Shown: positions 4,817 to 7,800 of the stretch, piece after piece
How positions within the stretch are numbered: position 1 is the stretch's first letter
Layout: each line of letters begins with the position of its first letter
Assembly (NCBI GenBank): GCA_964627195.1
Contig: CAZVJU010000002.1
Coordinates: 1 to 60,613, forward strand
Reading direction: 5' to 3'
Origin: an uncultured Gammaproteobacteria bacterium
GTDB lineage: Bacteria; Patescibacteriota; Microgenomatia; UBA8517
Length of the DNA stretch: 60,613 nt
Program-made: the position numbers and the translations under genes
Notes under the pieces: model-generated
The model's input: the letters and a program-made list of their open reading frames with translations, nothing else
What the model was told of the DNA's origin: nothing
The model's database searches: none

Positions 4817-7800
4817 TTAATCACTAACTTCCATCCAGCCTCCACTGGAGTGGCCGGAGATGTCAGGGATATACATATTGTAAGCTTGAGCTGGCGGGTG
4901 GTGATACCTTCCAGGCGTAGTGGGCCGTACGCGATAGGTATACTCGTATACACCAGTAGGTAGTGTTTCGGCAAAGAGAACAACTCGATCATCACGAACC
5001 TCATGATGTCTAAAGTAAAGCGGGCTTCGATCCTTGGGAATACTAAGTTTCTCAACATTAAGTAATGATGTTGTTGCCAAACTTTCGTTTACTGCCTCAA
5101 TCCCCGCTGGAAGTTTATCCTCGATAATAACATGGTGTGTAGTTGCAGCAGTTAAAATAATAAGTCTAATCCAAAGTTCATCTCCCGCATTTAACTTTGA
5201 ATTTCTAATTACCCGACCATTCCTATCAACAAAGTCTCTAATTACCACAAGCCCTTGGTCAAGCGGCTCAACCTCTTCAAAAGGAAGGAAATACTTGAGG
5301 TTCATATTGTAATAAAGTGCCCCCTTGCCGCTTTTTTCTATTTTCACCGGAACATTCCTCTCTTTGGCGATCTCGGCAAGCGAAAACTGTTCAACGACTT
5401 GCTTCATCAGGTCATTTTCTTCAAATGCACCCTCCTTTTGGGTAAGCCCTGCAAGCGATATCTTCCAAAACTCTTTAGGCTTACCTTCACGCCTTTCTTT
5501 CAGCATAGTGACAATTGCTCTTACGGCTGATGATGTCTCCTTAGTTGTTTGCCAGTGACCATCGTACCTGGCTTGCATTAGCCAGCGGGTAATATCTGGG
5601 ACAAAGGGGTGCTTGGGGTTGTTATCAACTAGTGCTTCCATCATCACAGAAGTTAAGGTAATATTGCCACTCATTGCATGCCATTTTCTTTTGGCTATCT
5701 CCCAATGGGCCGTCGTATTTGTTTTTACAGTCATCGCCACTAGTTCGTCCATAAGTCGAGTGACATCTCTCCTACTTCCTCCTCCCCTTTGCAGAGTCCT
5801 CAAAAGATACGCTTTACCTAGTTCATCCATTTGCCAACGTCTGTCCATAAGATTGCTCAAAATTCCTGAATCTAGAGTTTTTCCCCGAGAATAAACTGAA
5901 GCCAAGTAGACTATATTCTCAAGACCCAATTCCTGTTTATCCATCTCGCGCTTGAGATAGGTCATACCGCTTTCTATAGTACTTTCTGGGACGGTAAAAT
6001 CATTTTCTTGTGCATCCAATAAGCCATCTATAATCATCGCAGTTAAATATGGATTTGCGTCATAGCTTGCCCACCAACCCCAGCCTCCATCAGGCCTTTG
6101 CAGATTAGTGAGCCTCTGGATGCCGTCAGTTACGATATTTTCAAGGACATACTTGTCATACCCTCCGATTTTTTCCATTCCCGATTCTTTTGCCAAAGCA
6201 AGAAGTTGGATCGCCGGAATTACCCGATTGATGATCTGTTCATTACAATAGTAAGGAAAGGAAAGTAAATAACTTGCCGCATCCTGGACTCCAGAGCCCA
6301 AAGTTGGCGATAGACTGACCTCCAAACTCCCTTGGTCCGGAACAATGTTAGCAGGTAAAAACACTTTTTCGTCTCCAACGTCCTTTGCCTCACCCGAAGT
6401 CGCTACTACTTCCGGAGTATAGTAAGAAATAACCGGAATTTTAATTTTAACCGAGTCCGAGAACCCTCCACCTTCAGCCCGAAGTACAACTTCGGCTTCC
6501 TTAATATTTTTGACTTCAGTATCCCAGTAAATTTTTTGCGAGGTATCAGCCGCAATTGTTGTAGTCTTTTTGGAAGTGCCAACAACACTAAGTCCAGTAA
6601 GGGAAATCTCCGTAGAAACCGTTGAAGAACTTCCTGTATTATTGTGAACTACCATTCCCAGTTTTGGCTTATCGCCAACACTTATAAATCTTGGAAGTAA
6701 GGGTTGGATAAGTACATCCTTTGTAACCAGTATCTTTTTTACTGAATCTCCTACTGAAGTATTTTTACTTACCGCAATTCCAATGAGTCGCCATGTTGTC
6801 AGGTTATCAGGCAGCTTAACTTTAAAGTGCCCTTGGCCGTTATCATCTGTTTCGACATGGGCATTCCAATAGGCCGTATCAAGAAATTTCTCTCTCACCG
6901 TCTCTGGTCCACCATCTTTTTGGTTGTGAACCCAAATGTTGCCGGCTATAAAAGTGTGGTAATTCTCTACCTTCAGATTATAAACTCTTACGGGCTCTAT
7001 TATTTTTTTGATGCTTTCAACCTTTACCCAAAGACCATTTGCATCAAGCAATTCATCTTCAGGGGTAATGGCGTTGACAGCTAACCACCCTTTCTTGGTA
7101 AATAGCCTATGAACACCTGTCACTTTCAGCTTCCCATTTAGTAAAAAGTACTCACTAACATCGTGAACAAAAACCTCGGAAACCCTTGCTGAAACCATAG
7201 TTTGAGAGTTTTCTCCCTCTCGCGTTAAAACGCTATCTCCAGCTGCCACATCTTGAATAGCCTTATAAGTCCCAGTACTCATGAGGATAGGTGTTTCTCC
7301 GGTGAAACATCCACCCCCGGAACCGCCCTTAGCCCCAAGATTAACATTCTCGTTCAAGCGATCCATGGAAACAGTTAAATCATTGGCTGTCAAAACCGAA
7401 AGGTTTCTAGGGTTATAAAATGTTTGGTAAATATCTGCGAGTTCTGCTCTTGCTAAACTCCAGACCGCTTCATCAACCAGCGCAACCGCTACTTCTGTTT
7501 TAACATTTGCTCCAGTACCATCCTTTGTAGTCAAATTGACCTCCATTTCCTCTCCCGGACTGAAGCGTTCTTTTGGGGTAGATAGTTCAAGGTTTACTTC
7601 TGTTTTGGGATTATCTACCCTAATCTCGGCAACACCCATCTTAAAGTGAGGTGGATCTTTCACTTCTTTCCCGGCCTTTATAAAGCTTGCCGAAATAAAG
7701 GCGTTTGGAGAATACCGCTCGGTTATCGAAAGATCAAAAGCTTGGTTGTCGCTTGTCAGTTTTACAATCTTGTAATCATAAACACTTCCTCTCTCAATAG

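What the first reader, a model, noticed from the sequence alone, without database searches (positions are those of the whole stretch)
6923..7309. Intein-like Hint domain sits in the bait-region position of a thioester alpha-2-macroglobulin
Seen in the sequence:
- The A2M ORF contains a 129-aa module with all the Hint/intein splicing blocks: Cys1 in CFTGETPILM, TxxH in VTGVHRLF, VYNLKVENYHTF, and a terminal WVHN.
- It is flanked by the Gly-rich linker GAKGGSGGG and has no endonuclease domain.
- The residue after the terminal Asn is Gln, not the Cys/Ser/Thr needed for canonical splicing.
- The module ends about 10 residues before FLDTAYW...LPDNLTTWR and 226 residues before the thioester Cys of CNEQ.

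Established knowledge: in A2M/C3-family proteins the protease bait region lies directly upstream of that conserved motif. Bacterial intein-like (BIL) domains that lack a +1 nucleophile perform N- or C-terminal autocleavage or atypical splicing (Pietrokovski-lab work on BIL domains).

Inference: the domain could pre-cleave or self-activate the trap, convert it to a two-chain form, or use its N-terminal thioester to ligate the N-terminal part to another nucleophile. I do not know of a described A2M with this architecture, but I cannot search to confirm that.
Basis: partly seen in the sequence, partly recalled or inferred. Interest (0 to 1): 0.85.

Follow-up and report, generated by a model that had tools for sequence, protein, structure and literature searches.

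The report
Self-cutting Hint domain inside A2M bait loop
A large bacterial protease-trap protein (alpha-2-macroglobulin) of a Patescibacteria (CPR) bacterium carries a small, apparently active, intein-like self-processing domain exactly in the loop that proteases normally cut to spring the trap; this design recurs in at least 135 protein clusters and 81 checked species genomes, yet I found no paper describing it.

Summary
A 129-aa Hint domain (window 6923-7309, -) sits in a 2227-aa membrane-anchored, thioester-bearing A2M (4817-11500, -). It matches PT-HINT at E 1e-14, and its best solved relative is the C. thermocellum A-type BIL domain (predicted fold TM 0.85).

Four lines of evidence place it in the bait loop:
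- Pfam domain order.
- Alignment to E. coli ECAM, where it falls in the stretch equal to ECAM 923-977.
- Disordered linkers on both sides in the AlphaFold model.
- A 69%-identical Woesebacteria homologue that lacks exactly these 129 residues.

It is a family trait. At least 135 protein clusters (50% identity) and 81 of 84 loci checked from species-representative genomes, nearly all named ones Patescibacteria, carry it at the same site. Gly-1, Cys1, block-B Thr/His and the terminal His-Asn are invariant. Lys follows at +2 in 133/136. Residue +1 is Asp/Gln/Glu in 85% and almost never a nucleophile.

The module is therefore very likely catalytically active at both junctions but cannot splice canonically. 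I favour self-excision with amine-mediated re-joining; plain cleavage to a two-chain or self-triggered A2M is nearly as likely. No paper found describes it. Verdict: a new variant of known kinds.

The parts
4817..11500 (-). alpha-2-macroglobulin gene, 2227 aa (ATG at 11500; the mechanical ORF runs on to a TTG at 11650). Order of parts: three N-terminal hydrophobic segments, Big_5 x4, bMG3, MG2, bMG5, bMG6, A2M_BRD, Hint, A2M (MG), TED, bMG10.
7457..7891 (-). A2M_BRD (bait-region MG domain), aa 1254-1398 of the 2277-aa ORF numbering.
   Evidence: Pfam PF07703, E 2.7e-17; aligns to ECAM up to residue 922
7310..7375 (-). N-side bait linker TVSMDRLNENVNLGAKGGSGGG. It is disordered in the model and ends in the Gly-Gly that precedes Cys1.
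   Evidence: Gly at -1 in 135/136 family members
6923..7309 (-). Hint / bacterial-intein-like domain, 129 aa, about 14.4 kDa, a single Cys. Cys1 is aa 1448, block B is T1511..H1514, block F is VYN, and it ends in H1575-N1576.
6887..6922 (-). C-side bait linker QKDGGPETVREK: +1 Gln (not a nucleophile) and +2 Lys (family-invariant). Aa 1579-1587 are disordered in the model.
6611..6877 (-). A2M (PF00207) MG domain starting with FLDTAYW...LPDNLTTW; aligns to ECAM from residue 978.
5945..6292 (-). N-terminal part of the thioester domain (TED), the stretch matched by the Pfam TED profile. It contains the CNEQ thioester motif at 6236-6247.
4862..5254 (-). bMG10, the C-terminal MG domain.
11506..13764 (-). 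Class A penicillin-binding protein (transglycosylase + transpeptidase) immediately upstream, in the same orientation: the classic PBP1c-A2M gene pair.
   Evidence: the same pair occurs in L002 and 5 other loci

Best explanation
What it is. The 129-aa module is a catalytically competent Hint domain of the A-type bacterial-intein-like (BIL) / PT-HINT class. It is permanently resident in the bait loop of a membrane-anchored surface A2M from a Woesebacteria-like member of the Patescibacteria.

Proposed sequence of events (all inferred):
1. After export and folding, the domain shifts the Gly1447-Cys1448 peptide bond to a thioester (N-S acyl shift, helped by block-B Thr1511/His1514).
2. It cuts its own C-terminus by cyclisation of Asn1576, helped by His1575. 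This releases itself as a free domain of about 14 kDa.
3. Residue +1 is Gln, so the canonical transesterification step of inteins is impossible.
4. I favour capture of the thioester by an amine held next to it. This could be the new alpha-amine of Gln1577, the alternative splicing route reported for A-type BILs. It could also be the epsilon-amine of the invariant Lys1578, as in Tetrahymena BIL2, which makes a Gly-to-Lys isopeptide.
5. Either way the two A2M halves are re-joined. The mature protein is then an armed, single-chain trap with a short Gly-rich bait, like its Hint-less sister gene. Plain hydrolysis (cleavage) occurs as a side reaction.

Shown: identity, position, family-wide conservation and the natural Hint-less sister gene. 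Inferred: activity, order of steps and fate of the two halves.
For: Identity:
- PT-HINT E 1.2e-14, above its cut-off.
- Best solved relative is 2lwy, the C. thermocellum BIL domain: E 1e-11, 33% identity, TM 0.85.
- Tetrahymena BIL2 (6y75) matches with TM 0.81.

Position:
- It lies between A2M_BRD and the next MG domain.
- It falls in the gap equal to ECAM 923-977, which contains the protease-cut, disordered Arg923-Leu942 (PMC4498604).
- In the model a confident Hint fold hangs on two low-confidence linkers.

Activity under selection:
- In 136 representatives, Cys1, Phe2, block-B Thr and His, and the terminal His-Asn are 136/136. Gly-1 is 135/136 and the Asn of VYN is 135/136.
- In the 81 loci from species-representative genomes where the pattern scan found the module in one open frame with the A2M C-flank, Gly-1 is 80/81.
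- The Hint is the best conserved part of the protein: 37-43% identity, against 20-28% for the BRD and 24-25% for the TED.
- Mean pairwise identity is 44% for the Hint and 26% for the host regions.

Both junction chemistries are kept, which argues for full excision rather than one cut.

Re-joining:
- Lys is at +2 in 133/136 and 81/81. Of the three representatives without it, two (P0141, P0143) have Lys at +1.
- This Lys is replaced by Gly in the Hint-less relatives examined, L002 and P0007, so it appears to belong to the Hint chemistry rather than to the A2M.
- The Hint-less L002 gene is the sister of the window gene inside a Hint-bearing clade. It is intact and has the continuous bait GGSGGG-GGEGGPET.
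- A2M logic needs an uncut bait to stay armed (PMC4498604, PMC9352918).
- A-type BILs can splice by an alternative mechanism without a +1 nucleophile (PMC5874633, citing Dassa 2004).
- BIL2 makes a C-terminal-Gly to Lys isopeptide (PMC8616854).
Against: - No biochemical data exist for any member.
- Reviews state that BIL domains without a +1 nucleophile give predominantly cleaved products (PMC7664689).
- The same Hint subfamily occurs at the C-terminal end of small proteins, followed by tails of only 1-20 residues. There the job must be cleavage or transfer, not splicing.
- C3, C4 and C5 show that this superfamily can be a stable two-chain protein cut in this very loop.
- If the Hint were only a well-splicing passenger, its strong conservation, fixed length (129 aa in 109/136) and preferred Asp/Gln/Glu at +1 would be somewhat unexpected.
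Confidence: 0.4

Rival explanations
1. Cleavage only. The Hint cuts at one or both junctions and the ends are not re-joined. Two outcomes are possible. The A2M may become a two-chain protein held together by the shared MG fold, a built-in equivalent of furin processing of C3/C4/C5 in the same loop. Alternatively the cut may act like a protease cut and spring the trap without any protease. That would be self-triggered conformational change and thioester exposure, for example to fix the protein to a nearby surface.
For: - BILs lacking a +1 nucleophile give mainly N- and C-cleavage products (PMC7664689, PMC7765530).
- +1 is Asp/Gln/Glu in 115/136 members and Ser/Thr in only 7/136.
- Relatives of this Hint sit at the C-terminal ends of small proteins, where only cleavage or transfer makes sense.
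- The structure search aligns this segment with the corresponding part of C3/C5 chains. That this loop is the furin-processing / anaphylatoxin site of C3/C4/C5 is my own knowledge, not a tool result.
- The catalytic residues are invariant.
Against: - In ECAM and human A2M, bait cleavage itself triggers the change (PMC4498604, PMC9352918). Constitutive self-cleavage would therefore disarm a protease trap.
- One cut would be enough, yet both junction chemistries are invariant.
- The invariant +2 Lys has no role in this model.
- A self-triggered thioester cannot be the general purpose, because 49/131 members lack CxEQ.
- An intact Hint-less sister gene exists.
Confidence: 0.33
2. Intermolecular ligation. 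The Gly1447 thioester made by the Hint is resolved by an outside nucleophile, as in Hedgehog (cholesterol) or Tetrahymena BUBL (lysine of a target protein). The membrane-anchored N-terminal half of the A2M would become covalently attached to a protease, a cell-wall amine or a host-cell surface protein. The Hint thioester would be a second warhead that needs no TED thioester.
For: - The invariant Gly-Gly|Cys-Phe junction resembles the Hedgehog G|CF site (the conserved Gly-Cys thioester is described in PMC5874633) and, from my own knowledge, the GG end of ubiquitin-like domains.
- BIL2 dispenses its N-extein onto lysines of other proteins (PMC8616854).
- The module is kept in thioester-less A2Ms.
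- The cargo-GGG-Hint small proteins of the same subfamily look like dispensing units.
Against: - Nothing here points to a specific acceptor.
- The invariant C-terminal His-Asn is not needed for such a transfer.
- No adaptor region such as the Hedgehog sterol-recognition region is present; the domain is only 129 aa.
- The PBP neighbour is present at only 6 of the 86 loci then held, so there is no general cell-wall link.
Confidence: 0.1
3. Silent insert. The Hint no longer processes itself. It serves as a folded plug, spacer or recognition surface in the bait loop, and proteases cut the short linkers beside it.
For: - The fold is confident and hangs on two flexible linkers that could serve as bait.
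- The residual linkers are short, 34 aa in total at the median among 67 scorable Hint-bearing members, against 46 aa among 17 Hint-less homologues. The Hint therefore makes up most of the loop.
Against: - Every catalytic residue at both junctions is invariant over more than 135 clusters whose host regions have diverged to about 26% identity. This is not expected for an inactive domain.
- The junction residues -1 and +2 are also fixed.
Confidence: 0.07
4. Artefact: a chimeric assembly, a pseudogene, or a chance motif match.
For: None beyond the window being a metagenomic contig.
Against: - The 6.7-kb frame is open, and the identical gene was called on an ENA contig.
- The GC and GC3 of the Hint equal those of the gene.
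- The same insertion occurs in 135 of the 152 top-ranked proteins from the representative search that were examined. It also occurs in 81 independent genome loci, 71 of them with open frames of at least 1500 aa.
Confidence: 0.01

Closest known systems
A-type bacterial intein-like (BIL) domains, e.g. Clostridium thermocellum BIL4 (PDB 2lwy; Amitai 2003, Dassa 2004, Aranko 2013)
   Same: - Mini Hint fold of about 130-140 aa with no endonuclease.
- Cys1, block-B TxxH, Asn instead of Asp in block F (VYN), and a terminal His-Asn.
- No +1 nucleophile.
- Sits in a variable, exposed region of a secreted or surface bacterial protein.
- Best sequence and structure match in the PDB.
   Different: - The host protein and site are fixed. 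It is always the bait loop of an A2M, kept across a whole phylum-level radiation. Known BILs are described as scattered in hypervariable regions of non-conserved proteins.
- Gly-Gly before and x-Lys-Gly after the domain are invariant.
Bacterial alpha-2-macroglobulins ECAM/YfhM (E. coli) and SaA2M (Salmonella)
   Same: - MG-domain ring, bait-region domain, TED with CxEQ and a C-terminal MG10.
- A PBP1c-type gene next door.
- Anchored to the cytoplasmic membrane and facing outwards.
   Different: - The bait loop holds a folded autoprocessing domain instead of a disordered protease-sensitive peptide.
- There are about 600 extra N-terminal residues, including Big_5 domains.
- The N-terminus has hydrophobic, TM-like segments rather than a lipoprotein signal (by eye and by hydropathy only).
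- The organism belongs to the Patescibacteria, which are generally held to lack an outer membrane (my own knowledge).
Complement C3/C4/C5 (anaphylatoxin domain and furin site in the equivalent loop)
   Same: A small folded domain is inserted at the same place in the MG ring. The chain is cut there during maturation or activation, and the small domain is released. The structure search aligns this segment with the corresponding part of C3/C5 chains.
   Different: Cutting is done by furin and by convertases, not by the inserted domain itself. The ANA fold is unrelated to the Hint fold. That this is the same loop is my own knowledge of the C3 structure, not tested here residue by residue.
Tetrahymena thermophila BUBL BIL2 (PDB 6y75/6tmm)
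   Same: - A BIL-type Hint fold (TM 0.81, 25% identity).
- From my own knowledge, its N-extein is a ubiquitin-like domain ending in Gly-Gly.
- The thioester is resolved by a lysine side chain to give an isopeptide (PMC8616854), a precedent for a role of the invariant +2 Lys.
   Different: It is eukaryotic, and its exteins are ubiquitin-like domains. No lysine attack has been shown for the A2M module.
Pretoxin-HINT (PF07591) of polymorphic toxins
   Same: Best-scoring Pfam profile.
   Different: No toxin domain follows. The domain is internal to a protease-inhibitor scaffold.

Membership tests
HINT (Hedgehog/intein) superfamily | Profile match above a curated threshold | tested here: met
   PF07591 PT-HINT scores 55.2 bits (cut-off 27.7). 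Intein_splicing scores 37.8 (cut-off 35.8) and Vint 29.2 (cut-off 27) on the isolated module.
HINT (Hedgehog/intein) superfamily | HINT fold | tested here: met
   In the AlphaFold2 model the Hint segment has pLDDT above 90. Foldseek gives TM 0.85 and rmsd 1.7 A to 2lwy, 0.81 to 6y75 and 0.81 to the DnaB mini-intein 1mi8. The structure is predicted, not solved.
HINT (Hedgehog/intein) superfamily | Block A nucleophile (Cys1) and block B TxxH | tested here: met
   C1448, T1511 and H1514 are each invariant in 136/136 relatives.
Canonical (class 1) intein | Cys/Ser/Thr at +1 for transesterification | tested here: not met
   +1 is Gln in the window. Family counts are D54 Q42 E19 G8 S6 K2 A1 N1 T1. 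Genome-set counts are Q39 D22 E10 N4 G4 S1 C1.
Canonical (class 1) intein | Terminal His-Asn (block G) | tested here: met
   H1575-N1576, 136/136.
Canonical (class 1) intein | Demonstrated protein splicing that leaves a native peptide bond | not testable with these tools
   Needs expression and mass spectrometry.
A-type bacterial intein-like (BIL) domain | Intein-like motifs with a conserved C-terminal His-Asn, often without a +1 nucleophile | tested here: met
   The definition is as summarised in PMC7765530 and PMC5874633.
A-type bacterial intein-like (BIL) domain | Located in a variable region of a non-housekeeping, secreted or surface bacterial protein | tested here: met
   It lies in the bait loop of an A2M with three N-terminal hydrophobic segments. 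The site is constant across the family, which is atypical for BILs.
A-type bacterial intein-like (BIL) domain | Closest sequence relationship to known A-type BILs | tested here: met
   The best PDB hit by sequence is 2lwy, E 9.9e-12. It shares Asn in block F (VYN), as seen in that alignment. No dedicated A-type BIL profile was available, so this is a nearest-neighbour test only.
A-type bacterial intein-like (BIL) domain | Autocleavage or alternative splicing activity | not testable with these tools
   Inferred only from invariant catalytic residues.
Pretoxin-HINT of polymorphic toxins | Lies just upstream of a C-terminal toxin domain that it releases | tested here: not met
   It is followed by the A2M MG domain, the TED and bMG10. 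No toxin profile was found.
Hedgehog-type Hog domain | Gly-Cys-Phe cleavage site | tested here: met
   GG|CF; Gly 135/136, Cys and Phe 136/136.
Hedgehog-type Hog domain | C-terminal sterol-recognition / adduct-recognition region and no C-terminal Asn chemistry | tested here: not met
   The domain ends in His-Asn after 129 aa and then continues into the A2M.
Bacterial alpha-2-macroglobulin (thioester type, ECAM/SaA2M-like) | MG domains, bait-region domain, TED with CxEQ, bMG10 | tested here: met
   Pfam hits MG2, bMG6, A2M_BRD, A2M, TED_complement and bMG10 are all above their cut-offs (bMG3 and bMG5 scored below theirs). CNEQ is at 6236-6247. ECAM matches at E 1.6e-30.
Bacterial alpha-2-macroglobulin (thioester type, ECAM/SaA2M-like) | Disordered, protease-accessible bait peptide in the BRD | tested here: inconclusive
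   Two short disordered linkers (about 20 and 9 aa) remain beside the Hint. Whether they act as bait is unknown.
Bacterial alpha-2-macroglobulin (thioester type, ECAM/SaA2M-like) | Gene pair with a PBP1c-type transglycosylase | tested here: met
   The upstream gene has Transgly + Transpeptidase domains. This holds for only 6 of the 86 loci then held.
BUBL-type BIL (lysine-directed isopeptide ligation) | Thioester on a C-terminal Gly of the N-extein is resolved by a Lys epsilon-amine | not testable with these tools
   Gly-Gly at -2/-1 and Lys at +2 (133/136, 81/81) fit this chemistry. There is no chemical evidence.

The most novel reading that the evidence does not exclude
The Hint is not a passenger but a second, protease-independent reactive centre of the trap. 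Its Gly1447 thioester would be passed to a lysine. That lysine could be the invariant Lys1578, giving a branched (isopeptide) bait loop. It could also be a lysine of an outside protein or surface. In that case surface A2Ms of episymbiotic Patescibacteria would arm, trigger or covalently attach themselves without any protease, working as a self-contained 'convertase plus C3' in one polypeptide.
Probability: 0.25. Interest if true: 0.9.

Novelty: new variant of a known kind. Interest (0 to 1): 0.72.

Why it matters
The bait region is the trigger of every A2M/C3-type protein, and in all described cases an external protease pulls that trigger. Here a domain that can break and make peptide bonds by itself sits in the trigger, with its catalytic residues conserved across the Patescibacteria. 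This group is largely uncultured and is thought to live attached to other microbes.

If it is active, one of three things follows:
- It is the first A2M that matures by protein self-processing, a bacterial counterpart of furin processing of complement proteins.
- It is a self-triggering thioester protein.
- It is a natural example of lysine- or amine-directed BIL ligation in bacteria.

Any of these would interest both the A2M/complement and the intein/BIL fields. The 129-aa domain with fixed GG / xKG flanks could also be a useful protein-engineering tool. A simple expression and mass-spectrometry experiment would decide between them.

Tried and rejected
1. The + strand reading of the given coordinates is full of stops. 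The feature is on the - strand.

2. The search for related loci with the wrong frame and with the 26-sequence alignment A1 both failed. A 6-sequence alignment worked.

3. The search for homologous proteins with alignment A1 returned only short (<300 aa) Hint proteins and no long A2Ms. It was of no use for a census or for deepening the structure alignment. It did reveal the wider Hint subfamily.

4. The listing of cluster members gave no organism names, only 'alpha-2-macroglobulin' and 'YfaS'.

5. NCBIfam has no model for this architecture. The only hits were weak ones to intein-containing helicase and radical-SAM models.

6. A general link to peptidoglycan through the PBP neighbour is rejected: only 6 of the 86 loci then held carry the PBP gene.

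7. Recent horizontal acquisition is rejected:
- The GC and GC3 of the Hint equal those of the gene.
- No near-identical Hints occur in distant hosts.
- With the Hint masked, the Hint-less sister gene is nested in a Hint-bearing clade, so it is a loss and not a gain.

8. The Hint-versus-host distance correlation is weak (r 0.28, Mantel p about 0.001) because distances are saturated. It is compatible with vertical descent but is not a strong test.

9. The Dassa 2004 paper could not be read. Its content is cited through reviews and from memory.

10. I did not use the second structure job. The tool returns no coordinates, so the distance from Lys1578 to the Gly1447 carbonyl could not be measured.
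Full report
**1. The observation**

The coordinates 6923-7309 are right, but the feature is on the minus strand. The plus-strand translation is full of stops. The minus strand reads CFTGETPILM...KVTGVHRLF...VYNLKVENYHTFIAGNIWVHN, 129 residues. The module lies inside a long ORF, 4817-11650 (-).

The real gene starts at the ATG at 11500. That is five bases after the stop of the upstream gene, and it gives a 2227-aa product. An independent gene call with exactly this product is on record on an ENA metagenome contig. Residue numbers below use the 2277-aa ORF numbering; subtract 50 for the real protein.

- GAKGGSGGG lies just before Cys1448.
- Gln1577 follows Asn1576, within QKDGGPETVREK, and FLDTAYW comes next.
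- The Cys of CNEQ is 226 residues after the Asn.

**2. What the parts are**

Pfam places the following along the protein: four Big_5 repeats, bMG3, MG2, bMG5, bMG6, A2M_BRD (1254-1398), PT-HINT (1459-1576), A2M (1592-1680), TED (1787-1902) and bMG10 (2133-2263).

On its own, the module scores 55.2 bits on PT-HINT (cut-off 27.7, E 1.2e-14). It also passes the Intein_splicing and Vint cut-offs. Its best solved relative by sequence is the Clostridium thermocellum bacterial intein-like domain 2lwy (E 1e-11). Mini-inteins and the Tetrahymena BIL2 domain follow.

An AlphaFold2 model of residues 1240-1700 has mean pLDDT 86. The Hint part is above 90. Apart from the first ten residues of the modelled segment, the only low-confidence stretches are 20 residues before the Hint (1426-1445) and 9 after it (1579-1587). 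Foldseek matches the MG parts to ECAM, SaA2M, C3 and C5. It matches the Hint part to 2lwy (TM 0.85, rmsd 1.7 A, 33% identity) and to Tetrahymena BIL2 6y75 (TM 0.81).

The protein has three hydrophobic N-terminal segments, and the Hint contains a single Cys. The upstream gene is a class A PBP (transglycosylase plus transpeptidase), the classic partner of bacterial A2M genes.

**3. Is it in the bait region?**

Four independent lines say yes.

(a) Domain order: it lies between A2M_BRD and the next MG domain.

(b) Alignment to E. coli ECAM (5a42). Query 1207-1415 aligns to chain positions 674-883, and query 1602-2263 aligns to 939-1599. The thioester Cys is chain position 1148 in that alignment and Cys1187 in the paper's numbering (PMC4498604), so the offset is 39. 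The unaligned query stretch 1416-1601, which holds the Hint, therefore corresponds to ECAM 923-977. In elastase-cleaved ECAM, the 20 residues without density 'within the bait region' are Arg923-Leu942 (PMC4498604).

(c) In the model, the Hint hangs on two disordered linkers.

(d) A natural control exists. A Woesebacteria genome (LBWB01000002.1, locus L002) encodes an intact 2032-aa A2M that is 69% identical overall and 76% identical in the flanks. It lacks exactly the 129 residues:
- Window: NLGAKGGSGGG[Cys1...Asn129]QKDGGPETVREKFLDTAYW
- L002: NLGAKGGSGGG-GGEGGPETTREKFLDTAYW

This is supported, and at the DNA level.

**4. It is a family, not a singleton**

A full HMMER search of 1.84 billion representative proteins, using the Hint plus its flanks as query, gave 281 hits at E<=1e-30. 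I examined 152 proteins: the best 150 plus P0001 and P0002. Of these, 135 are A2M-sized proteins (mostly 1.6-2.3 kaa) in which the Hint and the following A2M domain match in one stretch.

In an alignment of these 135 with the window protein (136 sequences), the conservation is as follows:

| Position | Count |
|---|---|
| Gly -1 | 135/136 |
| Cys1 and Phe2 | 136/136 |
| Block-B Thr and His | 136/136 |
| Asn of VYN | 135/136 |
| Terminal His-Asn | 136/136 |
| Lys +2 | 133/136 |
| Gly +3 | 120/136 |
| Hint length 129 aa | 109/136 |

Of the three proteins without Lys at +2, two (P0141 and P0143) have Lys at +1 in the table. Residue +1 is D54, Q42, E19, G8, S6, K2, A1, N1, T1. Only 7 are Ser/Thr and none is Cys.

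An independent scan of species-representative genomes found 177 with a relative, of which the best 80 were fetched. All of these that carry a trustworthy name are Patescibacteria:
- WWE3
- Blackburn-, Davies-, Woyke-, Woese-, Ames- and Shapirobacteria
- Microgenomates
- Moraniibacteriota
- Magasanikbacteria
- Paceibacterota
- Saccharibacteria
- Peregrini- and Peribacteria
- Levyibacteriota

Of 84 loci examined, 81 have the module in one open frame with the A2M C-flank, and 71 of those frames are at least 1500 aa. In these 81, Gly -1 is 80/81, Lys +2 is 81/81, and +1 is Q39 D22 E10 N4 G4 S1 C1.

The Hint is the best conserved part of these proteins. Against the window protein it shows 37-43% identity. 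The BRD shows 20-28%, the next MG 33-40% and the TED 24-25%. Mean pairwise identity is 44% for the Hint and 26% for host regions.

The module does not depend on the classical thioester. CxEQ is present in 82 of 131 representatives and absent in 49, which mostly have D-x-D-Q at that place. In the genome set the split is 68 with and 13 without.

**5. History**

With the Hint masked, a neighbour-joining tree puts the Hint-less L002 as sister of the window gene. Both sit inside a clade whose other members (P0034, P0036, P0037, P0038) all carry the Hint. The simplest reading is a precise secondary loss in the L002 lineage.

Other Hint-less relatives keep the same flanks with Gly in place of x-Lys:
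- P0007: ...AEGGGG-GGESRTVFK
- P0011: ...SKGGSGGG-GGGQGPTR

The Hint's GC (0.413) and GC3 (0.388) equal those of the gene (0.423 +/- 0.025 and 0.36 +/- 0.04). No pair of distant hosts shares a near-identical Hint. So there is no sign of recent mobility, and there is no endonuclease.

Homologues from organisms named as other phyla lack the module. These phyla are Acidobacteriota, Chloroflexi, Armatimonadota, Abditibacteriales and Bipolaricaulota.

**6. The wider Hint subfamily**

The closest non-A2M relatives fall into two groups:
- Small proteins built as cargo-GGG-Hint followed by Lys and a very short tail.
- Proteins with two to five Hint domains back to back, joined by K-G-G-G.

Gly before Cys1 (75/89) and a Lys right after His-Asn (+1 in 29/89, +2 in 23/89) are therefore properties of this Hint subfamily, whatever the host protein. 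They are lost when the Hint is lost. This suggests that they take part in the chemistry.

**7. How it most likely works**

Shown: identity, position, conservation and the natural deletion. Inferred: everything about activity.

Invariance of every catalytic residue at both junctions, over clusters whose host parts have diverged to about 26% identity, makes an inactive domain unlikely. The N-S acyl shift at Gly1447-Cys1448 and cyclisation of Asn1576 should both occur, so the domain should excise itself as a 14.4-kDa piece. Canonical splicing is excluded by Gln at +1.

The literature gives two documented outcomes for such domains:
- Predominant N- and C-cleavage (PMC7664689, PMC7765530).
- For A-type BILs, an alternative splicing route (PMC5874633, citing Dassa et al. 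2004). From memory, that paper proposed that after Asn cyclisation the freed alpha-amine of the C-flank attacks the thioester. I could not read it.

Tetrahymena BIL2 goes further and resolves the thioester with a lysine side chain to make an isopeptide (PMC8616854).

I favour re-joining (confidence about 0.4) for four reasons:
- Both junction chemistries are kept, although one cut would be enough to open the loop.
- Lys +2 and Gly -1 are fixed and go with the Hint.
- An A2M must keep its bait intact to stay armed (PMC4498604, PMC9352918).
- The Hint-less sister gene has just the continuous Gly-rich bait that re-joining would produce.

Cleavage only (about 0.33) is nearly as likely. It would give a two-chain A2M, as furin does for C3/C4/C5 in the same loop, or a self-triggered one. 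Transfer of the N-terminal half to an outside nucleophile (about 0.1) and a silent structural insert (about 0.07) are less likely. An artefact is excluded.

**8. Comparison with what is known**

The module works like, and passes the testable criteria for, an A-type BIL domain. It fails the defining +1 criterion of canonical inteins, the toxin context of PT-HINT, and the adduct-recognition region of Hedgehog. The host is a bona fide bacterial thioester A2M.

What is new is the combination and its constancy. An autoprocessing domain is fixed in the trigger loop of an A2M, throughout the Patescibacteria.

Full-text searches gave the following:
- 'Bacterial intein-like' with 'macroglobulin' found nothing.
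- 'Hint domain' with 'alpha-2-macroglobulin' or 'bait region' found nothing relevant.
- 'Macroglobulin' with 'intein' found 12 papers, none judged relevant from their titles and abstracts.
- Papers on Patescibacterial A2Ms mention only a presumed role against host proteases.

NCBIfam has no model, and source names are only 'alpha-2-macroglobulin' or 'YfaS'. Precomputed Pfam annotation does show PF07591 together with PF07703 and PF00207 on such proteins. The architecture is therefore visible in databases but, as far as I can tell, undescribed.

**9. Verdict**

This is a new variant of known kinds. Interest is high but not maximal, because both parts are known families and the function still rests on inference.

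Noticed in passing
window 430-1419 (+): A 329-aa ORF with helix-turn-helix motifs plus a LAGLIDADG_3 match (E 1.2e-4). It looks like a free-standing homing-endonuclease-like gene, and it lies just before the methionyl-tRNA synthetase gene (1449-2849). It is about 3.4 kb from the A2M gene, and no link to the endonuclease-less Hint is evident.
   Followed up: no
proteins P0039, P0040, P0042, P0043, P0051, P0053, P0054, P0055, P0058, P0090, P0096, P0105, P0121, P0172, P0176: Proteins with 2-5 Hint domains of the same subfamily placed back to back, often as GGG[Hint]KGGG[Hint]K. In some, the Cys1 of the next domain follows within 2-4 residues of the previous His-Asn. Their purpose is unknown.
   Followed up: partly
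proteins P0185-P0303: Many small proteins (about 125-280 aa) have a short N-terminal part, a Gly run, this Hint subfamily, and then only Lys plus 1-20 residues. The layout is Hedgehog-like (cargo-GGG|Hint). Many are on short contigs, so some may be fragments.
   Followed up: partly
family representatives, e.g. P0047, P0050, P0061, P0066, P0111; 13 of 81 genome loci: About a third of the Hint-bearing A2M clusters lack the CxEQ thioester; most have G-D-[VLI]-D-Q at that place. They form a longer (about 1.8-1.9 kaa) subgroup with DTALF instead of DTAYW. The Hint is therefore independent of the TED thioester.
   Followed up: partly
L002:6593-12691 (Woesebacteria LBWB01000002.1); P0007; P0011: Hint-less A2Ms with the same flanks as Hint-bearing relatives, and with Gly-Gly in place of x-Lys after the junction. 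This points to repeated, exact in-frame loss of the 387-nt module. In the window, a GGTGGA repeat flanks the module on both sides; this was noticed by eye and not analysed.
   Followed up: partly
loci L003-L086: Many TPA_asm MAG records that carry this gene are titled 'uncultured Pseudomonadales', 'Gammaproteobacteria' or 'Bdellovibrionales'; one is 'Methanoperedens' and one 'Nevskiaceae'. All reliably named carriers are Patescibacteria. These titles look like placeholder or wrong taxonomy, or mis-binned contigs.
   Followed up: no
L001:9857-12311 (Amesbacteria contig_55612, 311 kb): In this long-read-style assembly, the Hint-bearing A2M is split into several short called genes (481, 134 and 112 aa, and others). 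Frameshift errors in the assembly are a more likely cause than a pseudogene.
   Followed up: no
window 30852-30924 (+): A single tRNA-Cys(GCA) is the only Rfam or ARAGORN hit in the 60.6-kb window. Window GC is 38%.
   Followed up: no
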